Shown piece after piece: positions 51,430 through 56,153 of a stretch of DNA of 64,000 bases (its first letter is position 1; each line of letters begins with the position of its first letter). The DNA is from Escherichia phage A7_1. The notes beneath the pieces were generated by a model. The model made no database searches. It was given only the letters and a program-made list of their open reading frames with translations, and was not told the DNA's origin. The stretch lies in sequence record OP795442. One strand, 5' to 3'. Made by a program: the position numbers and the translations under genes.

Positions 51430-51618
51430 TCACTCCTTTGCAGTAGAATCTTGCTTGGTCATTTCACGAAGAATAAGTGCTCCAATATTTTCAAGAAGTG
51501 TTACGAGAGTGTCAACTTCAGGTAACTCAATACTCTTAGATTCTTTACTCATCCCATCGCGAACTGACGAAATTTGCATAAACACGGCGATCATTTCTTT
51601 TGTAAGCTTAATATTCAT
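51430..51618 (-). CDS. hypothetical protein (62 aa)
   Basis: Track ORF. Confidence 0.4.
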
Positions 51619-51693
51619 TTTATCCTCTTTAGTTAGTAGATGAATCGTTGATCATGGTTGTGGCCCAAGTTGAACAATCTGAAGTAATTTATA

Positions 51694-51915
51694 TCAATTT
51701 CTCTTGATGTGTTTACTAGGACAGGCTCCCGCACCGTCTTTATATACCACAGCAGACGATCGACCGTTGCTATAAACGCAGACAGTTTGGCTACCGTCGC
51801 GGTATGAATCTTCTAAGTCTAACGTCTGACTGGCGTGAGCCTCGGGGAAGTTCAGTACACTCGTAATTAGGCAACCGAGTGCAAAACCCATAACCAGTGC
51901 TCTATTTTTGCTCAT
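51694..51915 (-). CDS. small secreted or lipoprotein-like protein (73 aa)
   Basis: N-terminal hydrophobic signal with ALGC lipobox-like site; four Cys. Confidence 0.45.
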   Translation of the reverse strand: MSKNRALVMGFALGCLITSVLNFPEAHASQTLDLEDSYRDGSQTVCVYSNGRSSAVVYKDGAGACPSKHIKRN

Positions 51916-51986
51916 CGTTTCATATCCTCTTCGTTGGTTGATATAAGGATTATACAGGATTTGTGGTGGGTGTCAACAGGCAGATA

Positions 51987-52012
51987 AAGAAAAACCGCCC
52001 CTAAGGGCGGCT
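51987..52012 (-). terminator. intrinsic terminator
   Basis: CCGCCCCTAAGGGCGG then T-run on minus strand. Confidence 0.55.
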
Positions 52013-52021
52013 TAAAAATTT

Positions 52022-52264
52022 TTACCAATTCGCATAACCATCTTGTTCATCAGTATCACGATCTACGATTCGTGGCTTTGGAGTAAGATCCATATGAGCA
52101 AGAGGTGTACCTTCTGGAATATCATTCAGTGAATATTCAACATTAACCAGTTGACCTGTGAGTTCATCCATCTTTTGGGAGATATACGCTGCAACTGATC
52201 GGCCTTCCAGAGTAGCCAGGTATTTCAGTTTTTCGTAAGTCGCGTCATTAAAATTAATATTCAT
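52022..52264 (-). CDS. hypothetical protein (80 aa)
   Basis: Track ORF. Confidence 0.45.
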   Translation of the reverse strand: MNINFNDATYEKLKYLATLEGRSVAAYISQKMDELTGQLVNVEYSLNDIPEGTPLAHMDLTPKPRIVDRDTDEQDGYANW

Positions 52265-52326
52265 ATTTGTATCTCCTTTTTGTATTTTTCATTATAAGGG
52301 CCACACTAACGTGGCCCGATCGTTAC

Positions 52327-52548
52327 TTAAGCTACCAGTTCTAAATCTTCAGCTTCTGCGTAGAAACCATCGACGATAACACCGTCCTGACGTGTGAATG
52401 CAACAATAATATCTTTACATTCTTCATCAACGAATTCAACAACACCTGTATCTCCAACTTGAACACCTGACAAACTGTAGCGATCCTCATAATTGCCCAG
52501 TGGATTGAACTTAACTGTCTGACCTGGATTAACTTCTTTGATATTCAC
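52327..52548 (-). CDS. hypothetical protein (73 aa)
   Basis: Track ORF. Confidence 0.45.
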   Translation of the reverse strand: MNIKEVNPGQTVKFNPLGNYEDRYSLSGVQVGDTGVVEFVDEECKDIIVAFTRQDGVIVDGFYAEAEDLELVA

Positions 52549-52588
52549 AGAATTTCTCCTTATACAAATTTAAGATATTAACTTTATA

Positions 52589-52972
52589 TTATTCTTCACC
52601 AACTTCACGGCCCATCAAGATATCAAGTTCGTTCAGTTGTTCAATCTGGCTTTCAAGCGCTGCACGTTTCTTCTCTGCTGCATCTTGCTTATCGTACTCA
52701 CCGTTAATCAAGGTACGCAGGAATTTAGGATCGATGTTCAGGTCTTCTTTAGTGATCGCTAGGATGCTTTTCAGATCTTCAGCAGCATCTTTCTGACGAC
52801 GAACAGCTTCAACACCTTCCTGAACAATGTTAGCCAGACGCTTACGAACTTCCAGGTCAGAAGGCAGGGTAGTGATCAGTTCGATTTTAGATTTAGCCAT
52901 TTTGTATTTCTCCTCTTTAATGTTTAAATAGTAAGTTAACTTCTTTGCTTCGATGGGGTAAGAATACCCCAT
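52589..52972 (-). CDS. hypothetical coiled-coil protein (127 aa)
   Basis: Track ORF. Confidence 0.5.
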   Translation of the reverse strand: MGYSYPIEAKKLTYYLNIKEEKYKMAKSKIELITTLPSDLEVRKRLANIVQEGVEAVRRQKDAAEDLKSILAITKEDLNIDPKFLRTLINGEYDKQDAAEKKRAALESQIEQLNELDILMGREVGEE

Positions 52973-52985
52973 TCAATATCTTATG

Positions 52986-53330
52986 TCAAGCAGGATTTTT
53001 AAGTTCTTTAAAAACAACCTGAAAGACTGGGATTTCATCACTGATCTCTGACACAAGCAGAGCTACAGTTTCACAAGGTAAAGTACACGTTGCAAATGTT
53101 TCATAACCCGTATGGATCTTCAAGGTTAAATTACCTTTTAGTCCAATTTGGAACTGACGGACAAAAGGACTTAATGCACTGACATAGATCTCATGATAAC
53201 CGTTTGGACGACGAGCATATTTTTTACCACTCGCAAGACCTGTAATAACTAAACCATCAAAAGAAATTTTAGTCTGAGAACCATCATACACAGGTAAGCC
53301 AGGTTTTTCAACATCTTTTTCTTGATTCAT
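52986..53330 (-). CDS. hypothetical protein (114 aa)
   Basis: ATG with RBS GGGGGA. Confidence 0.5.
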   Translation of the reverse strand: MNQEKDVEKPGLPVYDGSQTKISFDGLVITGLASGKKYARRPNGYHEIYVSALSPFVRQFQIGLKGNLTLKIHTGYETFATCTLPCETVALLVSEISDEIPVFQVVFKELKNPA

Positions 53331-53515
53331 AATTCCCCCTATCGTACAAACATTTTACCCTGGTCACAATAACCGTTTTTAATTCCTCGTGGAGCAGACA
53401 AACATTTTACTGCAATCTCTCCACACTTGCAAGGAGCATTTTCACGTTCTGCAATCTTTCGGTTCTGATCGAAAACTTCACCACATTTTTCACATTTGTA
53501 AGAATACAACGGCAT
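53309..53515 (-). CDS. zinc-ribbon small protein (68 aa), absent from ORF track
   Basis: Read codon by codon: MPLYSYKCEKCGEVF...CKCGE; overlaps next gene start by 22 nt. Confidence 0.4.
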
Positions 53516-53518
53516 TAA

Positions 53519-54256
53519 TTACATACCCTCCAGGTTTGCTTCAAAATAAGTGATTGGCTTCATGATCTTGCCATTCTTATCTTTAAATACTACACGATCC
53601 ATACCATCACCACCTTTTACGATGCTTCCCTTTACACCTTGATAACGGTTACGGTTACGCAGTTCAATCTGTTCAGCTTCCAAACGCAACATGGCATCAA
53701 GATCAAAATCAGCTTCTGCAAAAAAGTAATACGTCTTGTAGAAACATTCCGTAAATTCTTTCACGGTTGGGATCTTGGAATCATTTGAATCCAAAACCTC
53801 ATTTAAAGCACGACGAGCATTAAAGTTGGAGTTCTGCATGATTGCAACAACCGCCATAACGATCCCGTTTGTATTGTCACTCTCGATAAATTGATCAAGA
53901 GTTCGATAAAGCGAAGTCAGATTATACGTACCAACATTGTCAGCAGGACAGATGTTTTCAGAACCACCTTTCAGGAAGTTGTAATATGATCCAACTACAA
54001 ACAAGTCGCAAAGTGCATCTATGATTTCCTTACGATTCTTTTTAGTTAAACCAAGATCATAAAGTTCATTGTACTCTTCCATAACAAGAGTTTTTTGGAA
54101 TTTTGAAACATCTTCAGAGAAGTCATGAAAACCACGAGCAACAAAATTCCAATTTTTTACTCGCTCTGCTGCTTCCCGAAAGAAGCTATTGCCCTTAACA
54201 TCAATCATCTCGGAAATAAAGGTTTTTTGATCAGTACTCAATTCATTGTATTTCAA
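53519..54256 (-). CDS. hypothetical protein (245 aa)
   Basis: Track ORF. Confidence 0.5.
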   Translation of the reverse strand: MKYNELSTDQKTFISEMIDVKGNSFFREAAERVKNWNFVARGFHDFSEDVSKFQKTLVMEEYNELYDLGLTKKNRKEIIDALCDLFVVGSYYNFLKGGSENICPADNVGTYNLTSLYRTLDQFIESDNTNGIVMAVVAIMQNSNFNARRALNEVLDSNDSKIPTVKEFTECFYKTYYFFAEADFDLDAMLRLEAEQIELRNRNRYQGVKGSIVKGGDGMDRVVFKDKNGKIMKPITYFEANLEGM

Positions 54257-54309
54257 TTTAATCTCCTTTCGTTTAACTTGGGGCCATTATACATGACCCC
54301 TTATCATTG

Positions 54310-54771
54310 TCAACAGTCTTTATAAGTTTCTAGTGCAACTTTACGTGCTTCATCCTTTTCAATCTCAAACTTAGATCGCTTGTCCTTTCTTGAAGCCTTG
54401 TTACGGCGTTTAATGATCCGACGGCAAGCATGATAAAGGCGTGTACCTTCGTAATCATTCATCCAGAACAGATCGCCATTTACAAAAAGGCTGTCGGAGA
54501 AAATACCACAAACCTTTTCAATGTAAGTAACCTTGCCTGTGACCGTATCAACAATTGTATAATCAACATACCAAAGATCATCATTGTCTTCACAAGGGTC
54601 TTCATGACCTTCAGGAACAAAAACTCCAGAATGTATCTCAAACCGAGGAGATCCTTTACGAATCAACTTCAAGATCTTACCTGCTGGCTTACGAGTCATC
54701 AGCACAGGAGCGCCCAAAATTAAAGAAAGGTAAAGCGCAATCCCCACAACAGCGATAATTAAAGCTTCCAC
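54310..54771 (-). CDS. hypothetical membrane-anchored protein (153 aa)
   Basis: N-terminal TM helix. Confidence 0.5.
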   Translation of the reverse strand: MEALIIAVVGIALYLSLILGAPVLMTRKPAGKILKLIRKGSPRFEIHSGVFVPEGHEDPCEDNDDLWYVDYTIVDTVTGKVTYIEKVCGIFSDSLFVNGDLFWMNDYEGTRLYHACRRIIKRRNKASRKDKRSKFEIEKDEARKVALETYKDC

Positions 54772-54773
54772 TA

Positions 54774-56153
54774 TTAAACCTCCTCTGCAATTTTACGAAG
54801 AAGATCCAGAAGAGAGTTCGATGCTTCGATCACTTCTTCCAGGCTGTTGGCTACGCTCTTATCAAAGCGAAGTTCAACAAACTTATAATTTAAACGAGGC
54901 AAAAACAGAGATTTCAGATCTTTGTTCTCTGCATCAGTAATGTCATTAGCCTTGATCGTAATAATCTGCCCAATGAAATACTCACTCGGTTTTTTACGAA
55001 GAGCATCAGTAAGTCCAGATCCTGCACCAACTTCAAGAAGTCCATCACGAGTACGGCAGATCAGAGATCCAATAAGCCCAGGCTTCTTTTTGTGAGGCGT
55101 TGTCGCCACAACTTCAAGATCAACATCGAACTCATTTTTAAGTTTTATCCCTTTCTTAGTTTTGTTATCTCCCCAAGGCATATTCGCCTCTTTAAGAACC
55201 GTACCCTCTTTCTTCTGCAAACGCATTTCAATAAAGTGGTCGATTGCCTCTTTGAGGGTATTGATCTCACGGCCCTTGATAAAGTCAAAATGCTCGCGGT
55301 CTTCTACCAACAAAGCCAATCCTTGTGCAGACATACGACGATCTTTGTAAGGTGTTTTGGATTTGCGCTCAATGTACTCACCCATTGTAACTCGGTCCCA
55401 AATAACGATTCGTACACGATCACGGTCGATATCTTCAGGATCTTGGTTCAGATAACCATTGCCTTCCGCACGTTCCATAACACCATGCAAACCATTCGGA
55501 TCAATTACCAAACCTTCGCCGTGGACAACATACGGCTGTGGAATCCCATCGTCATCTACAGCAGCTTTCATCAGGGCATTCTCAACATGTTCTGGAGATC
55601 GGAAGTTAAGTTCTTTACCGGAGCGAGAACGATACACAACCTGATCAGGCCAAACCATAATGTCAGCATACAGACCATCCATCTTTTCGTCAGAGAAAGC
55701 ACCTTCATAGTTGAAATTACGAAGGAGATCCTCTTTGAAAAGGGTATAGCTCTGGTAAGGTGGCTCTGTAACCAGATCCTTCCAAACCTTGTTGGTCAGA
55801 GTAGTCTGAATACCACATTCAAGATCGCGGTTGATGATCTTCAGCAGTGTTTCTGGTTCTTCACACAGTCGAACGGCATTCGTAAGAACATCACGACCTT
55901 CATGCCCAGTGTACATACGACTCGCAACATCGTTTACGATAAGATCAATACTCTCTTGTAGATTGCGACTTCCTTGATGGAACGTTGCAGGATCAACCTT
56001 GAAATTACGAACAAAAAAGTTTAGCTCTTTGCTGTATGTAACTCGAAACACCTCTCGCAAACCATCATTATCCGCATGACTACGTAAGATCGCTTCTTTT
56101 TCTTTTGTTGAACCAGTGGATGCCAGTTGTTCGATAATCTTAGTTACGCTCAC
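54774..56153 (-). CDS. ATP-dependent DNA ligase (T4 gp30-like)
   Basis: Adenylation motif KMDGL; N-terminal IEQLASTGSTKEKEAIL and DLECGIQTTLTNKVW resemble T4 ligase from memory. Confidence 0.8.
   Translation of the reverse strand: MSVTKIIEQLASTGSTKEKEAILRSHADNDGLREVFRVTYSKELNFFVRNFKVDPATFHQGSRNLQESIDLIVNDVASRMYTGHEGRDVLTNAVRLCEEPETLLKIINRDLECGIQTTLTNKVWKDLVTEPPYQSYTLFKEDLLRNFNYEGAFSDEKMDGLYADIMVWPDQVVYRSRSGKELNFRSPEHVENALMKAAVDDDGIPQPYVVHGEGLVIDPNGLHGVMERAEGNGYLNQDPEDIDRDRVRIVIWDRVTMGEYIERKSKTPYKDRRMSAQGLALLVEDREHFDFIKGREINTLKEAIDHFIEMRLQKKEGTVLKEANMPWGDNKTKKGIKLKNEFDVDLEVVATTPHKKKPGLIGSLICRTRDGLLEVGAGSGLTDALRKKPSEYFIGQIITIKANDITDAENKDLKSLFLPRLNYKFVELRFDKSVANSLEEVIEASNSLLDLLRKIAEEV

What the first reader, a model, noticed from the sequence alone, without database searches (positions are those of the whole stretch)
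53309..53515. Zinc-ribbon ORF missing from the track and overlapping the next gene
Codon-level reading gives a 68-aa protein with an FmdB-like zinc-ribbon signature (YSYKCEKCGEVF...CKCGE). Its 3' end overlaps the start of 52986..53330 by 22 nt. Small zinc ribbons in phage early regions often modulate host transcription or translation.
Basis: seen in the sequence. Interest (0 to 1): 0.35.

Follow-up and report, generated by a model that had tools for sequence, protein, structure and literature searches.

The report
Small phage zinc-ribbon gene, gp39.2-like

Summary
The ORF exists, but it runs 53339..53515 on the minus strand: 58 aa plus a TAG stop, not 68 aa. It ends 8 nt before the next gene instead of overlapping it by 22 nt.

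It is a genuine gene.
- It scores above the curated cut-offs of Pfam Zn_ribbon_8 and NCBIfam TIGR02605 (FmdB family).
- It is exactly 58 codons in ten Vequintavirinae relatives.
- Variable sites fall 25/16/49 on codon positions 1/2/3, and dN/dS is 0.04-0.18.

The window is a Septuagintavirus, about 99% identical to Escherichia phage A5-4. The identical protein is annotated there (A54_194) and in UPEC06 as "zinc ribbon domain-containing protein".

It falls in the same PHROG as T4 gp39.2. Identity is 43% to the T4-type protein and 53% to the Krischvirus one. T4 gp39.2 (NwgI) is the only member of this group for which I found experimental work, and it modulates host GroEL, not transcription.

The gene is second in a roughly 2.3-kb unit. 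That unit starts at one of only two perfect sigma-70 consensus promoters in the window and ends at an intrinsic terminator.

Verdict: a known kind of gene with no tested function in this lineage. GroEL modulation is the best-supported guess (about 0.35). Interest is low.

The parts
53339..53515 (-). 58-aa FmdB-family / gp39.2-type zinc-ribbon gene (ATG 53515..53513, TAG 53341..53339). Predicted Zn ligands are C8, C11, C29 and C31 (CxxC-17-CxC). Tail residues 40-58 read SAPRGIKNGYCDQGKMFVR.
   Evidence: ORF list and sequence. Pfam, NCBIfam and PHROG hits. Purifying selection. AF2 model with four strands in residues 3-37.
53528..53532 (-). GGAGG Shine-Dalgarno-like motif inside the 3' end of the upstream gene, about 12 nt before the ATG. 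The upstream stop TAA (53521..53519) lies 3 nt before the ATG, so translational coupling is likely.
   Evidence: Sequence. The CTGGAG motif is conserved at the same place in all nine other Vequintavirinae loci compared; in the eight Certrevirus loci the stop overlaps the start-codon position by one base (TAATG; TAATT in PcCB7V), while in SSBI34 a TAA stop directly abuts a GTG start.
53519..54256 (-). Upstream gene of the same unit: a 245-aa MazG-like nucleotide pyrophosphohydrolase with an EExxE...ExxD motif.
   Evidence: phrog_671 E=4e-20 and phrog_715. 37% identical to the SSBI34 protein in the same position.
54286..54313 (-). Perfect sigma-70 consensus promoter, TTGACA-16-TATAAT, that probably drives the unit.
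   Evidence: one of only 2 perfect matches in 64 kb, with 0.14 expected by chance.
52986..53330 (-). Downstream 114-aa gene. It starts 8 nt after the zinc-ribbon stop and does not overlap it.
   Evidence: phrog_13903 E=7e-10.
51992..52013 (-). Intrinsic-terminator-like hairpin (9-bp stem, 6 GC pairs, T-rich tail) that closes the roughly 2.3-kb unit.
   Evidence: It is followed by the second perfect promoter at 51976..51949.

Best explanation
Shown: 53339..53515 (-) is a genuine protein-coding gene for a 58-residue Cys4 zinc ribbon of the FmdB family, in the short phage subgroup typified by T4 gp39.2. Residues 1-40 are modelled as two beta-hairpins whose knuckles carry C8/C11 and C29/C31. Residues 41-58 are a conserved tail modelled with low confidence.

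Inferred from sequence signals: the gene is transcribed by host RNA polymerase from the consensus promoter at 54313..54286, as the second cistron of a six-gene unit. It is probably translationally coupled to the MazG-like gene upstream.

Inferred from homology only: like T4 gp39.2/NwgI, the protein binds a host protein rather than DNA. The most likely target is the GroEL/GroES chaperonin, which it would shift toward the open, co-chaperonin-accepting state so that phage proteins fold efficiently in hosts where GroEL function is limiting.

Confidence that it is a real FmdB/gp39.2-type gene is about 0.97. Confidence in the GroEL mechanism is about 0.35, and that is the figure given below.
For: Gene reality:
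- Curated-threshold hits.
- Conserved 58-codon length and codon-position pattern 25/16/49.
- dN/dS 0.04-0.18.
- A 100% identical UniProt/BFVD entry and GenBank CDSs.

Subgroup membership:
- Best PHROG is phrog_1076 for this protein, for T4-type (RB3) gp39.2 and for the Krischvirus, Karamvirus and S13 homologues, all aligned to profile positions 91-149.
- 43% identity to T4-type gp39.2 and 53% to Krischvirus gp39.2.
- In an exhaustive search of 1.84 billion cluster representatives, 8 of the 14 best short hits carry the same tail motif, AP..G(I/V)..G(Y/F)x(D/E).
- The T4 entry Q01434 superposes at 1.4 A over 44 columns.

Function of the homologue: gp39.2 is a 58-aa protein that shifts GroEL toward its open conformation, and a T4 39.2 deletion mutant is blocked on specific groEL mutant hosts (PMC5153855; PMC4396842).

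Expression: promoter, terminator and Shine-Dalgarno signals.
Against: - No experiment exists for any Vequintavirinae member.
- Identity to the tested T4 protein is only 43% over 54 residues of a small, motif-dominated domain.
- There is no synteny with the T4 39-goF region.
- The zinc-knuckle spacings differ: CxxC/CxC here, Cx4C/CxxC in T4.
- The N-terminal MPxYxYxC signature and the conserved tail motif (as SAP in most members) also occur in bacterial-type FmdB proteins, so they are not specific to GroEL modulators.
- The listed samples of the tblastn hits for T4 gp31 and E. coli GroES (12 of 1399 and 25 of 125 records) include no Vequintavirinae record, so no phage co-chaperonin is known here. 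The lists were not exhaustive.
- The primary paper (Ang and Georgopoulos 2012, Genetics 190:989) was not available to read.
Confidence: 0.35

Rival explanations
1. It binds some other host or phage protein, neither GroEL nor RNA polymerase. On this reading the FmdB/gp39.2 scaffold is a general small adaptor whose target differs between lineages.
For: Contexts vary widely among homologues: goF in T4, dexA in Krischvirus, the terminase large subunit in a Serratia-associated contig, dNMP kinase/NT5C and Acb5 in a 262-kb contig, and dNMP kinase in Streptomyces phage Muntaha. The extreme C-terminus G(K/R)M(F/Y)VR is shared with S13-type proteins but absent from T4.
Against: No specific candidate target emerges. 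The only tested members of the group act on GroEL.
Confidence: 0.25
2. It is a transcription regulator, binding host RNA polymerase, sigma factor or DNA to redirect early transcription. This is the first reader's idea and what the 'FmdB-like transcriptional regulator' label implies.
For: PHROG and RefSeq labels. The gene sits in an early-type unit next to a phrog_639 'transcriptional regulator' gene. The top PDB fold matches are RbpA and RNA polymerase subunit P zinc ribbons.
Against: Those fold matches have E of 0.24 or worse and rmsd of 8-11 A over the full length, which is no more than generic zinc-ribbon resemblance. The label is inherited and I found no test of it. No DNA-binding domain is present. 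The tested homologue has a different function.
Confidence: 0.15
3. It is a partner or regulatory subunit of the adjacent MazG-like nucleotide pyrophosphohydrolase, made in fixed proportion with it by translational coupling.
For: The zinc-ribbon gene lies immediately downstream (a gap of 0 or 3 nt, or a 1- or 14-nt overlap) of a MazG-like gene in three lineages. Those MazG-like genes belong to different PHROGs and show no BLASTP similarity to the window protein: phrog_671 here and in SSBI34, phrog_229 in Certrevirus, phrog_1247 in Karamvirus PG7. Against UPEC06, the MazG-like plus zinc-ribbon block differs by 0.6-0.8% while the flanking genes differ by 9-12%. Other homologues sit beside dNMP kinase or NT5C.
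Against: No MazG-like gene is annotated beside the homologue in the Tequatrovirus (RB3) or Krischvirus loci examined, and the S13 upstream gene matches no PHROG; by organism name most of the 890 matching records are T4-like Escherichia or Shigella phages. Adjacency may simply reflect placement in early nucleotide-metabolism clusters.
Confidence: 0.15
4. It is a chance ORF, or the signal belongs to the antisense ORF 53389..53553 (+) or to a non-coding element.
For: Short ORFs are common, and the antisense frame is open in most relatives.
Against: The curated family hits, the codon-position pattern and sense identity far above antisense identity. No Rfam match at E of 1 or better in 51500..55000. 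All neighbouring genes are on the minus strand.
Confidence: 0.01

Closest known systems
Bacteriophage T4 gp39.2 (NwgI), a 58-aa modulator of GroEL/GroES (Ang and Georgopoulos 2012; described in PMC5153855 and PMC4396842)
   Same: Same length (58 aa). Same PHROG (phrog_1076). 43% identity, or 53% to the Krischvirus orthologue. Same MPxYxYxC start, ERE motif, SAP..G(Y/F)xD tail and four-cysteine ribbon. The core superposes at 1.4 A.
   Different: A different phage family (Vequintavirinae, not Straboviridae) and no synteny. Knuckle spacing is CxxC/CxC rather than Cx4C/CxxC. The extreme C-terminus is QGKMFVR rather than LLKG. There are two extra cysteines, C38 and C50. The GroEL effect is untested.
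FmdB family zinc ribbon proteins (Pfam PF09723 Zn_ribbon_8; NCBIfam TIGR02605 CxxC_CxxC_SSSS)
   Same: Scores above both curated cut-offs. The domain starts at the initiator Met, and 17 residues separate the two cysteine pairs.
   Different: The second pair is CxC rather than CxxC, a variant shared by 53 of 119 short relatives. There is no Ser/Gly-rich or GSGWY-type bacterial tail. I found no established family function; recalled from memory, the regulator name comes from one putative case in Methylophilus.
Certrevirus 'FmdB-like transcriptional regulator' genes (for example CR9 gp261, phiTE_184, PBES 02 ADU18_0083)
   Same: Orthologues: 66-78% identity, 58 aa, and the same position in the ligase / membrane protein / MazG-like / zinc-ribbon order.
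   Different: Their upstream MazG-like gene is a 120-aa protein of another PHROG. Some carry an HNH homing endonuclease immediately downstream.

Membership tests
FmdB family zinc ribbon (PF09723 / TIGR02605) | Score above the curated family cut-offs | tested here: met
   PF09723 40.2 bits against 34.4. TIGR02605 46.8 bits against 31.3.
FmdB family zinc ribbon (PF09723 / TIGR02605) | Domain begins at the initiator Met with MPxYxYxC, and two cysteine pairs lie about 17 residues apart | tested here: met
   The protein reads MPLYSYKC8EKC11 - 17 residues - C29KC31. M1, P2, Y4, Y6, C8 and C31 are invariant or nearly so across 26-65 homologues.
FmdB family zinc ribbon (PF09723 / TIGR02605) | Both cysteine pairs are CxxC | tested here: not met
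   The second pair is CxC. This is a common variant inside the family: 53 of 119 short relatives are CxxC...CxC. It does not exclude membership as the HMMs define it.
FmdB family zinc ribbon (PF09723 / TIGR02605) | Zinc-ribbon fold that binds zinc | tested here: inconclusive
   The AF2 model has four strands (3-7, 14-18, 26-28, 34-37), consistent with two hairpins. Metal binding cannot be tested here.
T4 gp39.2 / NwgI group | Sequence homology to T4, RB49-type gp39.2 | tested here: met
   43% identity, E=2e-14 pairwise. 53% identity, E=6e-16. Same best PHROG.
T4 gp39.2 / NwgI group | Size of about 55-62 aa with the tail motif AP..G(I/V)..G(Y/F)x(D/E) | tested here: met
   58 aa with SAPRGIKNGYCD. 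The motif is enriched among the closest hits, 8 of the 14 best short ones.
T4 gp39.2 / NwgI group | Genomic position between gene 39 and goF/dexA | tested here: not met
   Here the gene lies between a MazG-like gene and a 114-aa gene, downstream of DNA ligase.
T4 gp39.2 / NwgI group | Modulates GroEL/GroES: suppresses groEL/groES alleles and is needed on some groEL hosts | not testable with these tools
   The function is known only for T4 from secondary sources. From memory of the primary paper's abstract it also holds for RB69, RB43 and RB49; this was not verified here.

The most novel reading that the evidence does not exclude
The zinc ribbon and a MazG-like NTP pyrophosphohydrolase form a functional two-gene module that has been assembled, or kept, independently with three unrelated MazG-like families in Septuagintavirus/SSBI34, Certrevirus and Karamvirus. 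The zinc ribbon would direct or regulate nucleotide hydrolysis during early infection, for example removal of a host alarmone or a defence signalling nucleotide. That would mean the gp39.2 family does more than modulate GroEL.
Probability: 0.1. Interest if true: 0.55.

Novelty: already known. Interest (0 to 1): 0.12.

Why it matters
It matters little. The gene is annotated in the closest relatives and belongs to a catalogued family.

The practical value is a corrected gene model: 58 aa with no overlap. The finding is also a reminder that annotation pipelines drop this small ORF in several related genomes.

If the GroEL link holds, gp39.2-type chaperonin modulators would extend beyond T4-like phages into Vequintavirinae. 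That is a modest extension of a niche result.

Tried and rejected
- **Read-through or a longer product.** After the TAG the frame reads GGG GAA TTA TGA, so no 68-aa product is possible.
- **Antisense ORF 53389..53553 (+).** Rejected on conservation: 34-47% amino-acid identity against 66-78% for the sense frame.
- **C2H2 zinc finger.** Profile hits to Aart and consensus zinc-finger chains, and long multi-stretch hits in the representative search, come only from the YKCxxCGxxF half-motif. There is no HxxxH.
- **Solved structure of a relative.** None was found by sequence. PDB Foldseek gave no match at E of 0.001 or better.
- **Defence or anti-defence models.** PADLOC gave no hit for this gene or its two neighbours.
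- **Structured RNA.** No Rfam hit.
- **Paralogue in the window.** None was found with a family HMM run over all 1126 six-frame ORFs.
- **Primary gp39.2 paper.** Not held in the library. Searches for 'FmdB-like', 'gp39.2' and 'NwgI' gave no further functional data. The Septuagintavirus paper does not mention zinc, MazG or chaperones.
- **Word-index homologue search with the single protein.** It gave only 5 hits. A profile search and the exhaustive search were needed.
- **Phage co-chaperonin.** tblastn with T4 gp31 and E. coli GroES listed no Vequintavirinae record among the samples shown. The lists were not exhaustive.

Full report
**1. Observation**

Reading the minus strand from 53515 gives ATG CCG TTG TAT..., which translates to MPLYSYKCEKCGEVFDQNRKIAERENAPCKCGEIAVKCLSAPRGIKNGYCDQGKMFVR followed by TAG at 53341..53339. 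The protein is therefore 58 aa, not 68.

The next gene starts with ATG at 53330, eight bases after the TAG. Those eight bases (GGGGAATT), together with the AG of the TAG stop, give an AGGGGG Shine-Dalgarno-like run. The claimed 22-nt overlap does not exist. The quoted peptide motifs and the start coordinate are correct.

**2. Is it a gene?**

Yes. The evidence is as follows.
- The protein scores above the curated cut-offs of Pfam Zn_ribbon_8 (PF09723, 40.2 against 34.4 bits) and NCBIfam TIGR02605, 'FmdB family zinc ribbon protein' (46.8 against 31.3 bits).
- tblastn finds it in 890 phage records.
- In ten Vequintavirinae sequences with 66-75% nucleotide identity to the window, the ORF is always 58 codons.
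- Variable alignment columns fall 25/16/49 on codon positions 1/2/3.
- The sense translation is 66-78% identical, against 34-47% for the antisense frame.
- Nei-Gojobori dN/dS is 0.04-0.18 where dS is not saturated.
- No Rfam family matches the region.

**3. What genome is this, and is the gene known?**

The region is 99.0% identical to Escherichia phage A5-4 and 95-98% identical to A73, W70, LTH01 and UPEC06. These phages form the genus Septuagintavirus within Vequintavirinae (PMC11370258).

The identical protein is annotated as A54_194 'hypothetical protein' and as QUL77233.1 'zinc ribbon domain-containing protein'. It also has a 100% identical UniProt/BFVD entry. RefSeq names the Certrevirus orthologues 'FmdB-like transcriptional regulator'.

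The small ORF is nevertheless left unannotated in PcCB7V, SSBI34 and P7_Pc, and apparently in CR8: only the MazG-like CDS is listed under the match there, and that region was not fetched.

**4. Anatomy**

The cysteines conserved across the Vequintavirinae orthologues compared are C8, C11, C29 and C31, in the pattern CxxC, 17 residues, CxC. The CxC second knuckle is not unusual: 53 of 119 short relatives have it. C38 and C50 are specific to the window lineage.

An AlphaFold2 model built on 65 homologues has mean pLDDT 68.5. Its strands lie at 3-7, 14-18, 26-28 and 34-37, which fits a two-hairpin zinc ribbon. Residues 41-58 are modelled with low confidence, yet that tail is conserved (SAPRGIKNGY..QG+MFVR). 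That pattern suggests a docking segment.

PDB fold matches are all non-significant generic zinc ribbons, with E of 0.24 or worse. By sequence, only spurious C2H2 half-motif matches appear.

**5. Expression context**

All genes in the region are on the minus strand. Only two perfect TTGACA-N16-TATAAT promoters occur in the 64-kb window, against 0.14 expected by chance. They lie at 54313..54286 and 51976..51949.

The first sits just upstream of the 245-aa MazG-like gene at 53519..54256 (phrog_671, E=4e-20). The order after that is:
- the zinc-ribbon gene;
- the 114-aa gene;
- three more small genes;
- a terminator-like hairpin at 52013..51992.

The upstream TAA stop lies 3 nt before the zinc-ribbon ATG. 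A GGAG motif inside the upstream gene's 3' end is conserved in all nine other Vequintavirinae loci compared. In the eight Certrevirus loci the stop overlaps the start-codon position by one base (TAATG; TAATT in PcCB7V), while in SSBI34 a TAA stop directly abuts a GTG start. These signals point to early, host-polymerase-driven, translationally coupled expression. That is inferred from sequence, not shown.

**6. Relatives and function**

The protein and the gp39.2 proteins of T4-type (RB3), Krischvirus, Karamvirus and S13 phages all have phrog_1076 as their best PHROG. Identity is 43% to T4-type gp39.2 and 53% to Krischvirus gp39.2. The T4 entry Q01434 superposes at 1.4 A over 44 columns.

In an exhaustive search of 1.84 billion cluster representatives, the nearest short hits are enriched for the same tail motif. 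A profile search places many homologues on phage-sized contigs.

T4 gp39.2 (NwgI) is the only member of this group for which I found experimental work. It is a 58-aa protein that shifts GroEL toward its open, co-chaperonin-binding conformation, and a T4 39.2 deletion mutant cannot grow on specific groEL mutants (PMC5153855; PMC4396842; primary reference Ang and Georgopoulos 2012, not held). From my memory of that paper's abstract, the RB69, RB43 and RB49 homologues behaved alike. That would make functional conservation across this level of divergence plausible, but I could not verify it here.

**7. Mechanism and rivals**

My best-supported mechanism is GroEL/GroES modulation by protein-protein contact, at about 0.35. 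The rivals are:
- another, unidentified protein target (0.25), supported by the very varied gene neighbourhoods of homologues;
- a partner of the adjacent MazG-like enzyme (0.15).

The last rival rests on a curious observation. Three MazG-like families from different PHROGs, two of which show no BLASTP similarity to the window protein, sit immediately upstream of this gene in three lineages. The MazG-like plus zinc-ribbon block is also far less diverged from UPEC06 than its flanks. Against it, no MazG-like gene is annotated beside the homologue in the Tequatrovirus (RB3) or Krischvirus loci examined.

**8. Verdict**

Its family assignment is right, and its proposed role in transcription or translation is unsupported. 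Novelty: already known. Interest: low.

Noticed in passing
window 54286..54313 (-) and 51949..51976 (-); terminator-like hairpin 51992..52013 (-): The only two perfect sigma-70 consensus promoters in the 64-kb window (0.14 expected by chance) bracket this neighbourhood. With the GC-rich hairpin between them they define a neat six-gene unit of about 2.3 kb.
   Followed up: partly
window 53519..54256 (-); L007:1139-1501; L005:2179-2514: MazG-like pyrophosphohydrolase genes of three different PHROGs (671, 229, 1247) sit directly upstream of the gp39.2-type zinc-ribbon gene in Septuagintavirus/SSBI34, Certrevirus and Karamvirus; the Certrevirus and Karamvirus proteins show no BLASTP similarity to the window protein. 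No MazG-like gene is annotated there in the T4-type (RB3) or Krischvirus loci, and the S13 upstream gene matches no PHROG.
   Followed up: partly
window 54774..56153 (-): The DNA ligase gene differs from A5-4 and UPEC06 at about 16-17% of positions in a MAFFT alignment, while the genes just downstream differ from A5-4 by under 1-3%. This suggests a mosaic or recombinant ligase allele; indels may inflate the figure.
   Followed up: no
L004:3001-3177 (Pectobacterium phage PcCB7V); L010:1501-1677 (Salmonella phage SSBI34): In PcCB7V the orthologue has ATT where the others have ATG, and it is unannotated. In SSBI34 it starts with GTG and is also unannotated. P7_Pc lacks the CDS too, and CR8 appears to (only the MazG-like CDS is listed under the match).
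   Followed up: partly
L011:1674-2177, L013:1674-2177, L004:3174-3677, compared with window 52986..53330: In PBES 02, phiTE and PcCB7V an HNH homing endonuclease gene is inserted right after the zinc-ribbon gene; in PBES 02 and phiTE it overlaps the zinc-ribbon gene's end by 4 nt. The window instead carries a 114-aa gene there (phrog_13903, labelled 'virion structural protein'), an odd label for an early-unit gene.
   Followed up: no
window 52589..52972 (-): The 127-aa ORF probably starts at the internal ATG 52900, giving 103 aa. A strong AAAGAGGAGAAA Shine-Dalgarno run precedes that ATG, the phrog_639 match begins at residue 25, and UPEC06 annotates the short form while A5-4 annotates the long one. 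A TTGACA-17-TATTCT promoter-like site lies at 52989..52961.
   Followed up: partly
window 53339..53515 (-), residues C38 and C50: There are two extra cysteines beyond the conserved four. They are found only in the Septuagintavirus-type lineage (S38 and F/Y50 in Certrevirus) and do not always occur together (P0004 has E38/C50). Their significance is unknown.
   Followed up: no
BFVD entry A0A8T8L630: A 54-aa FmdB-like viral protein (35% identity) has a UniProt accession close to that of the 100% identical entry, so the same phage genome may carry a second family member. None is present in this window.
   Followed up: partly
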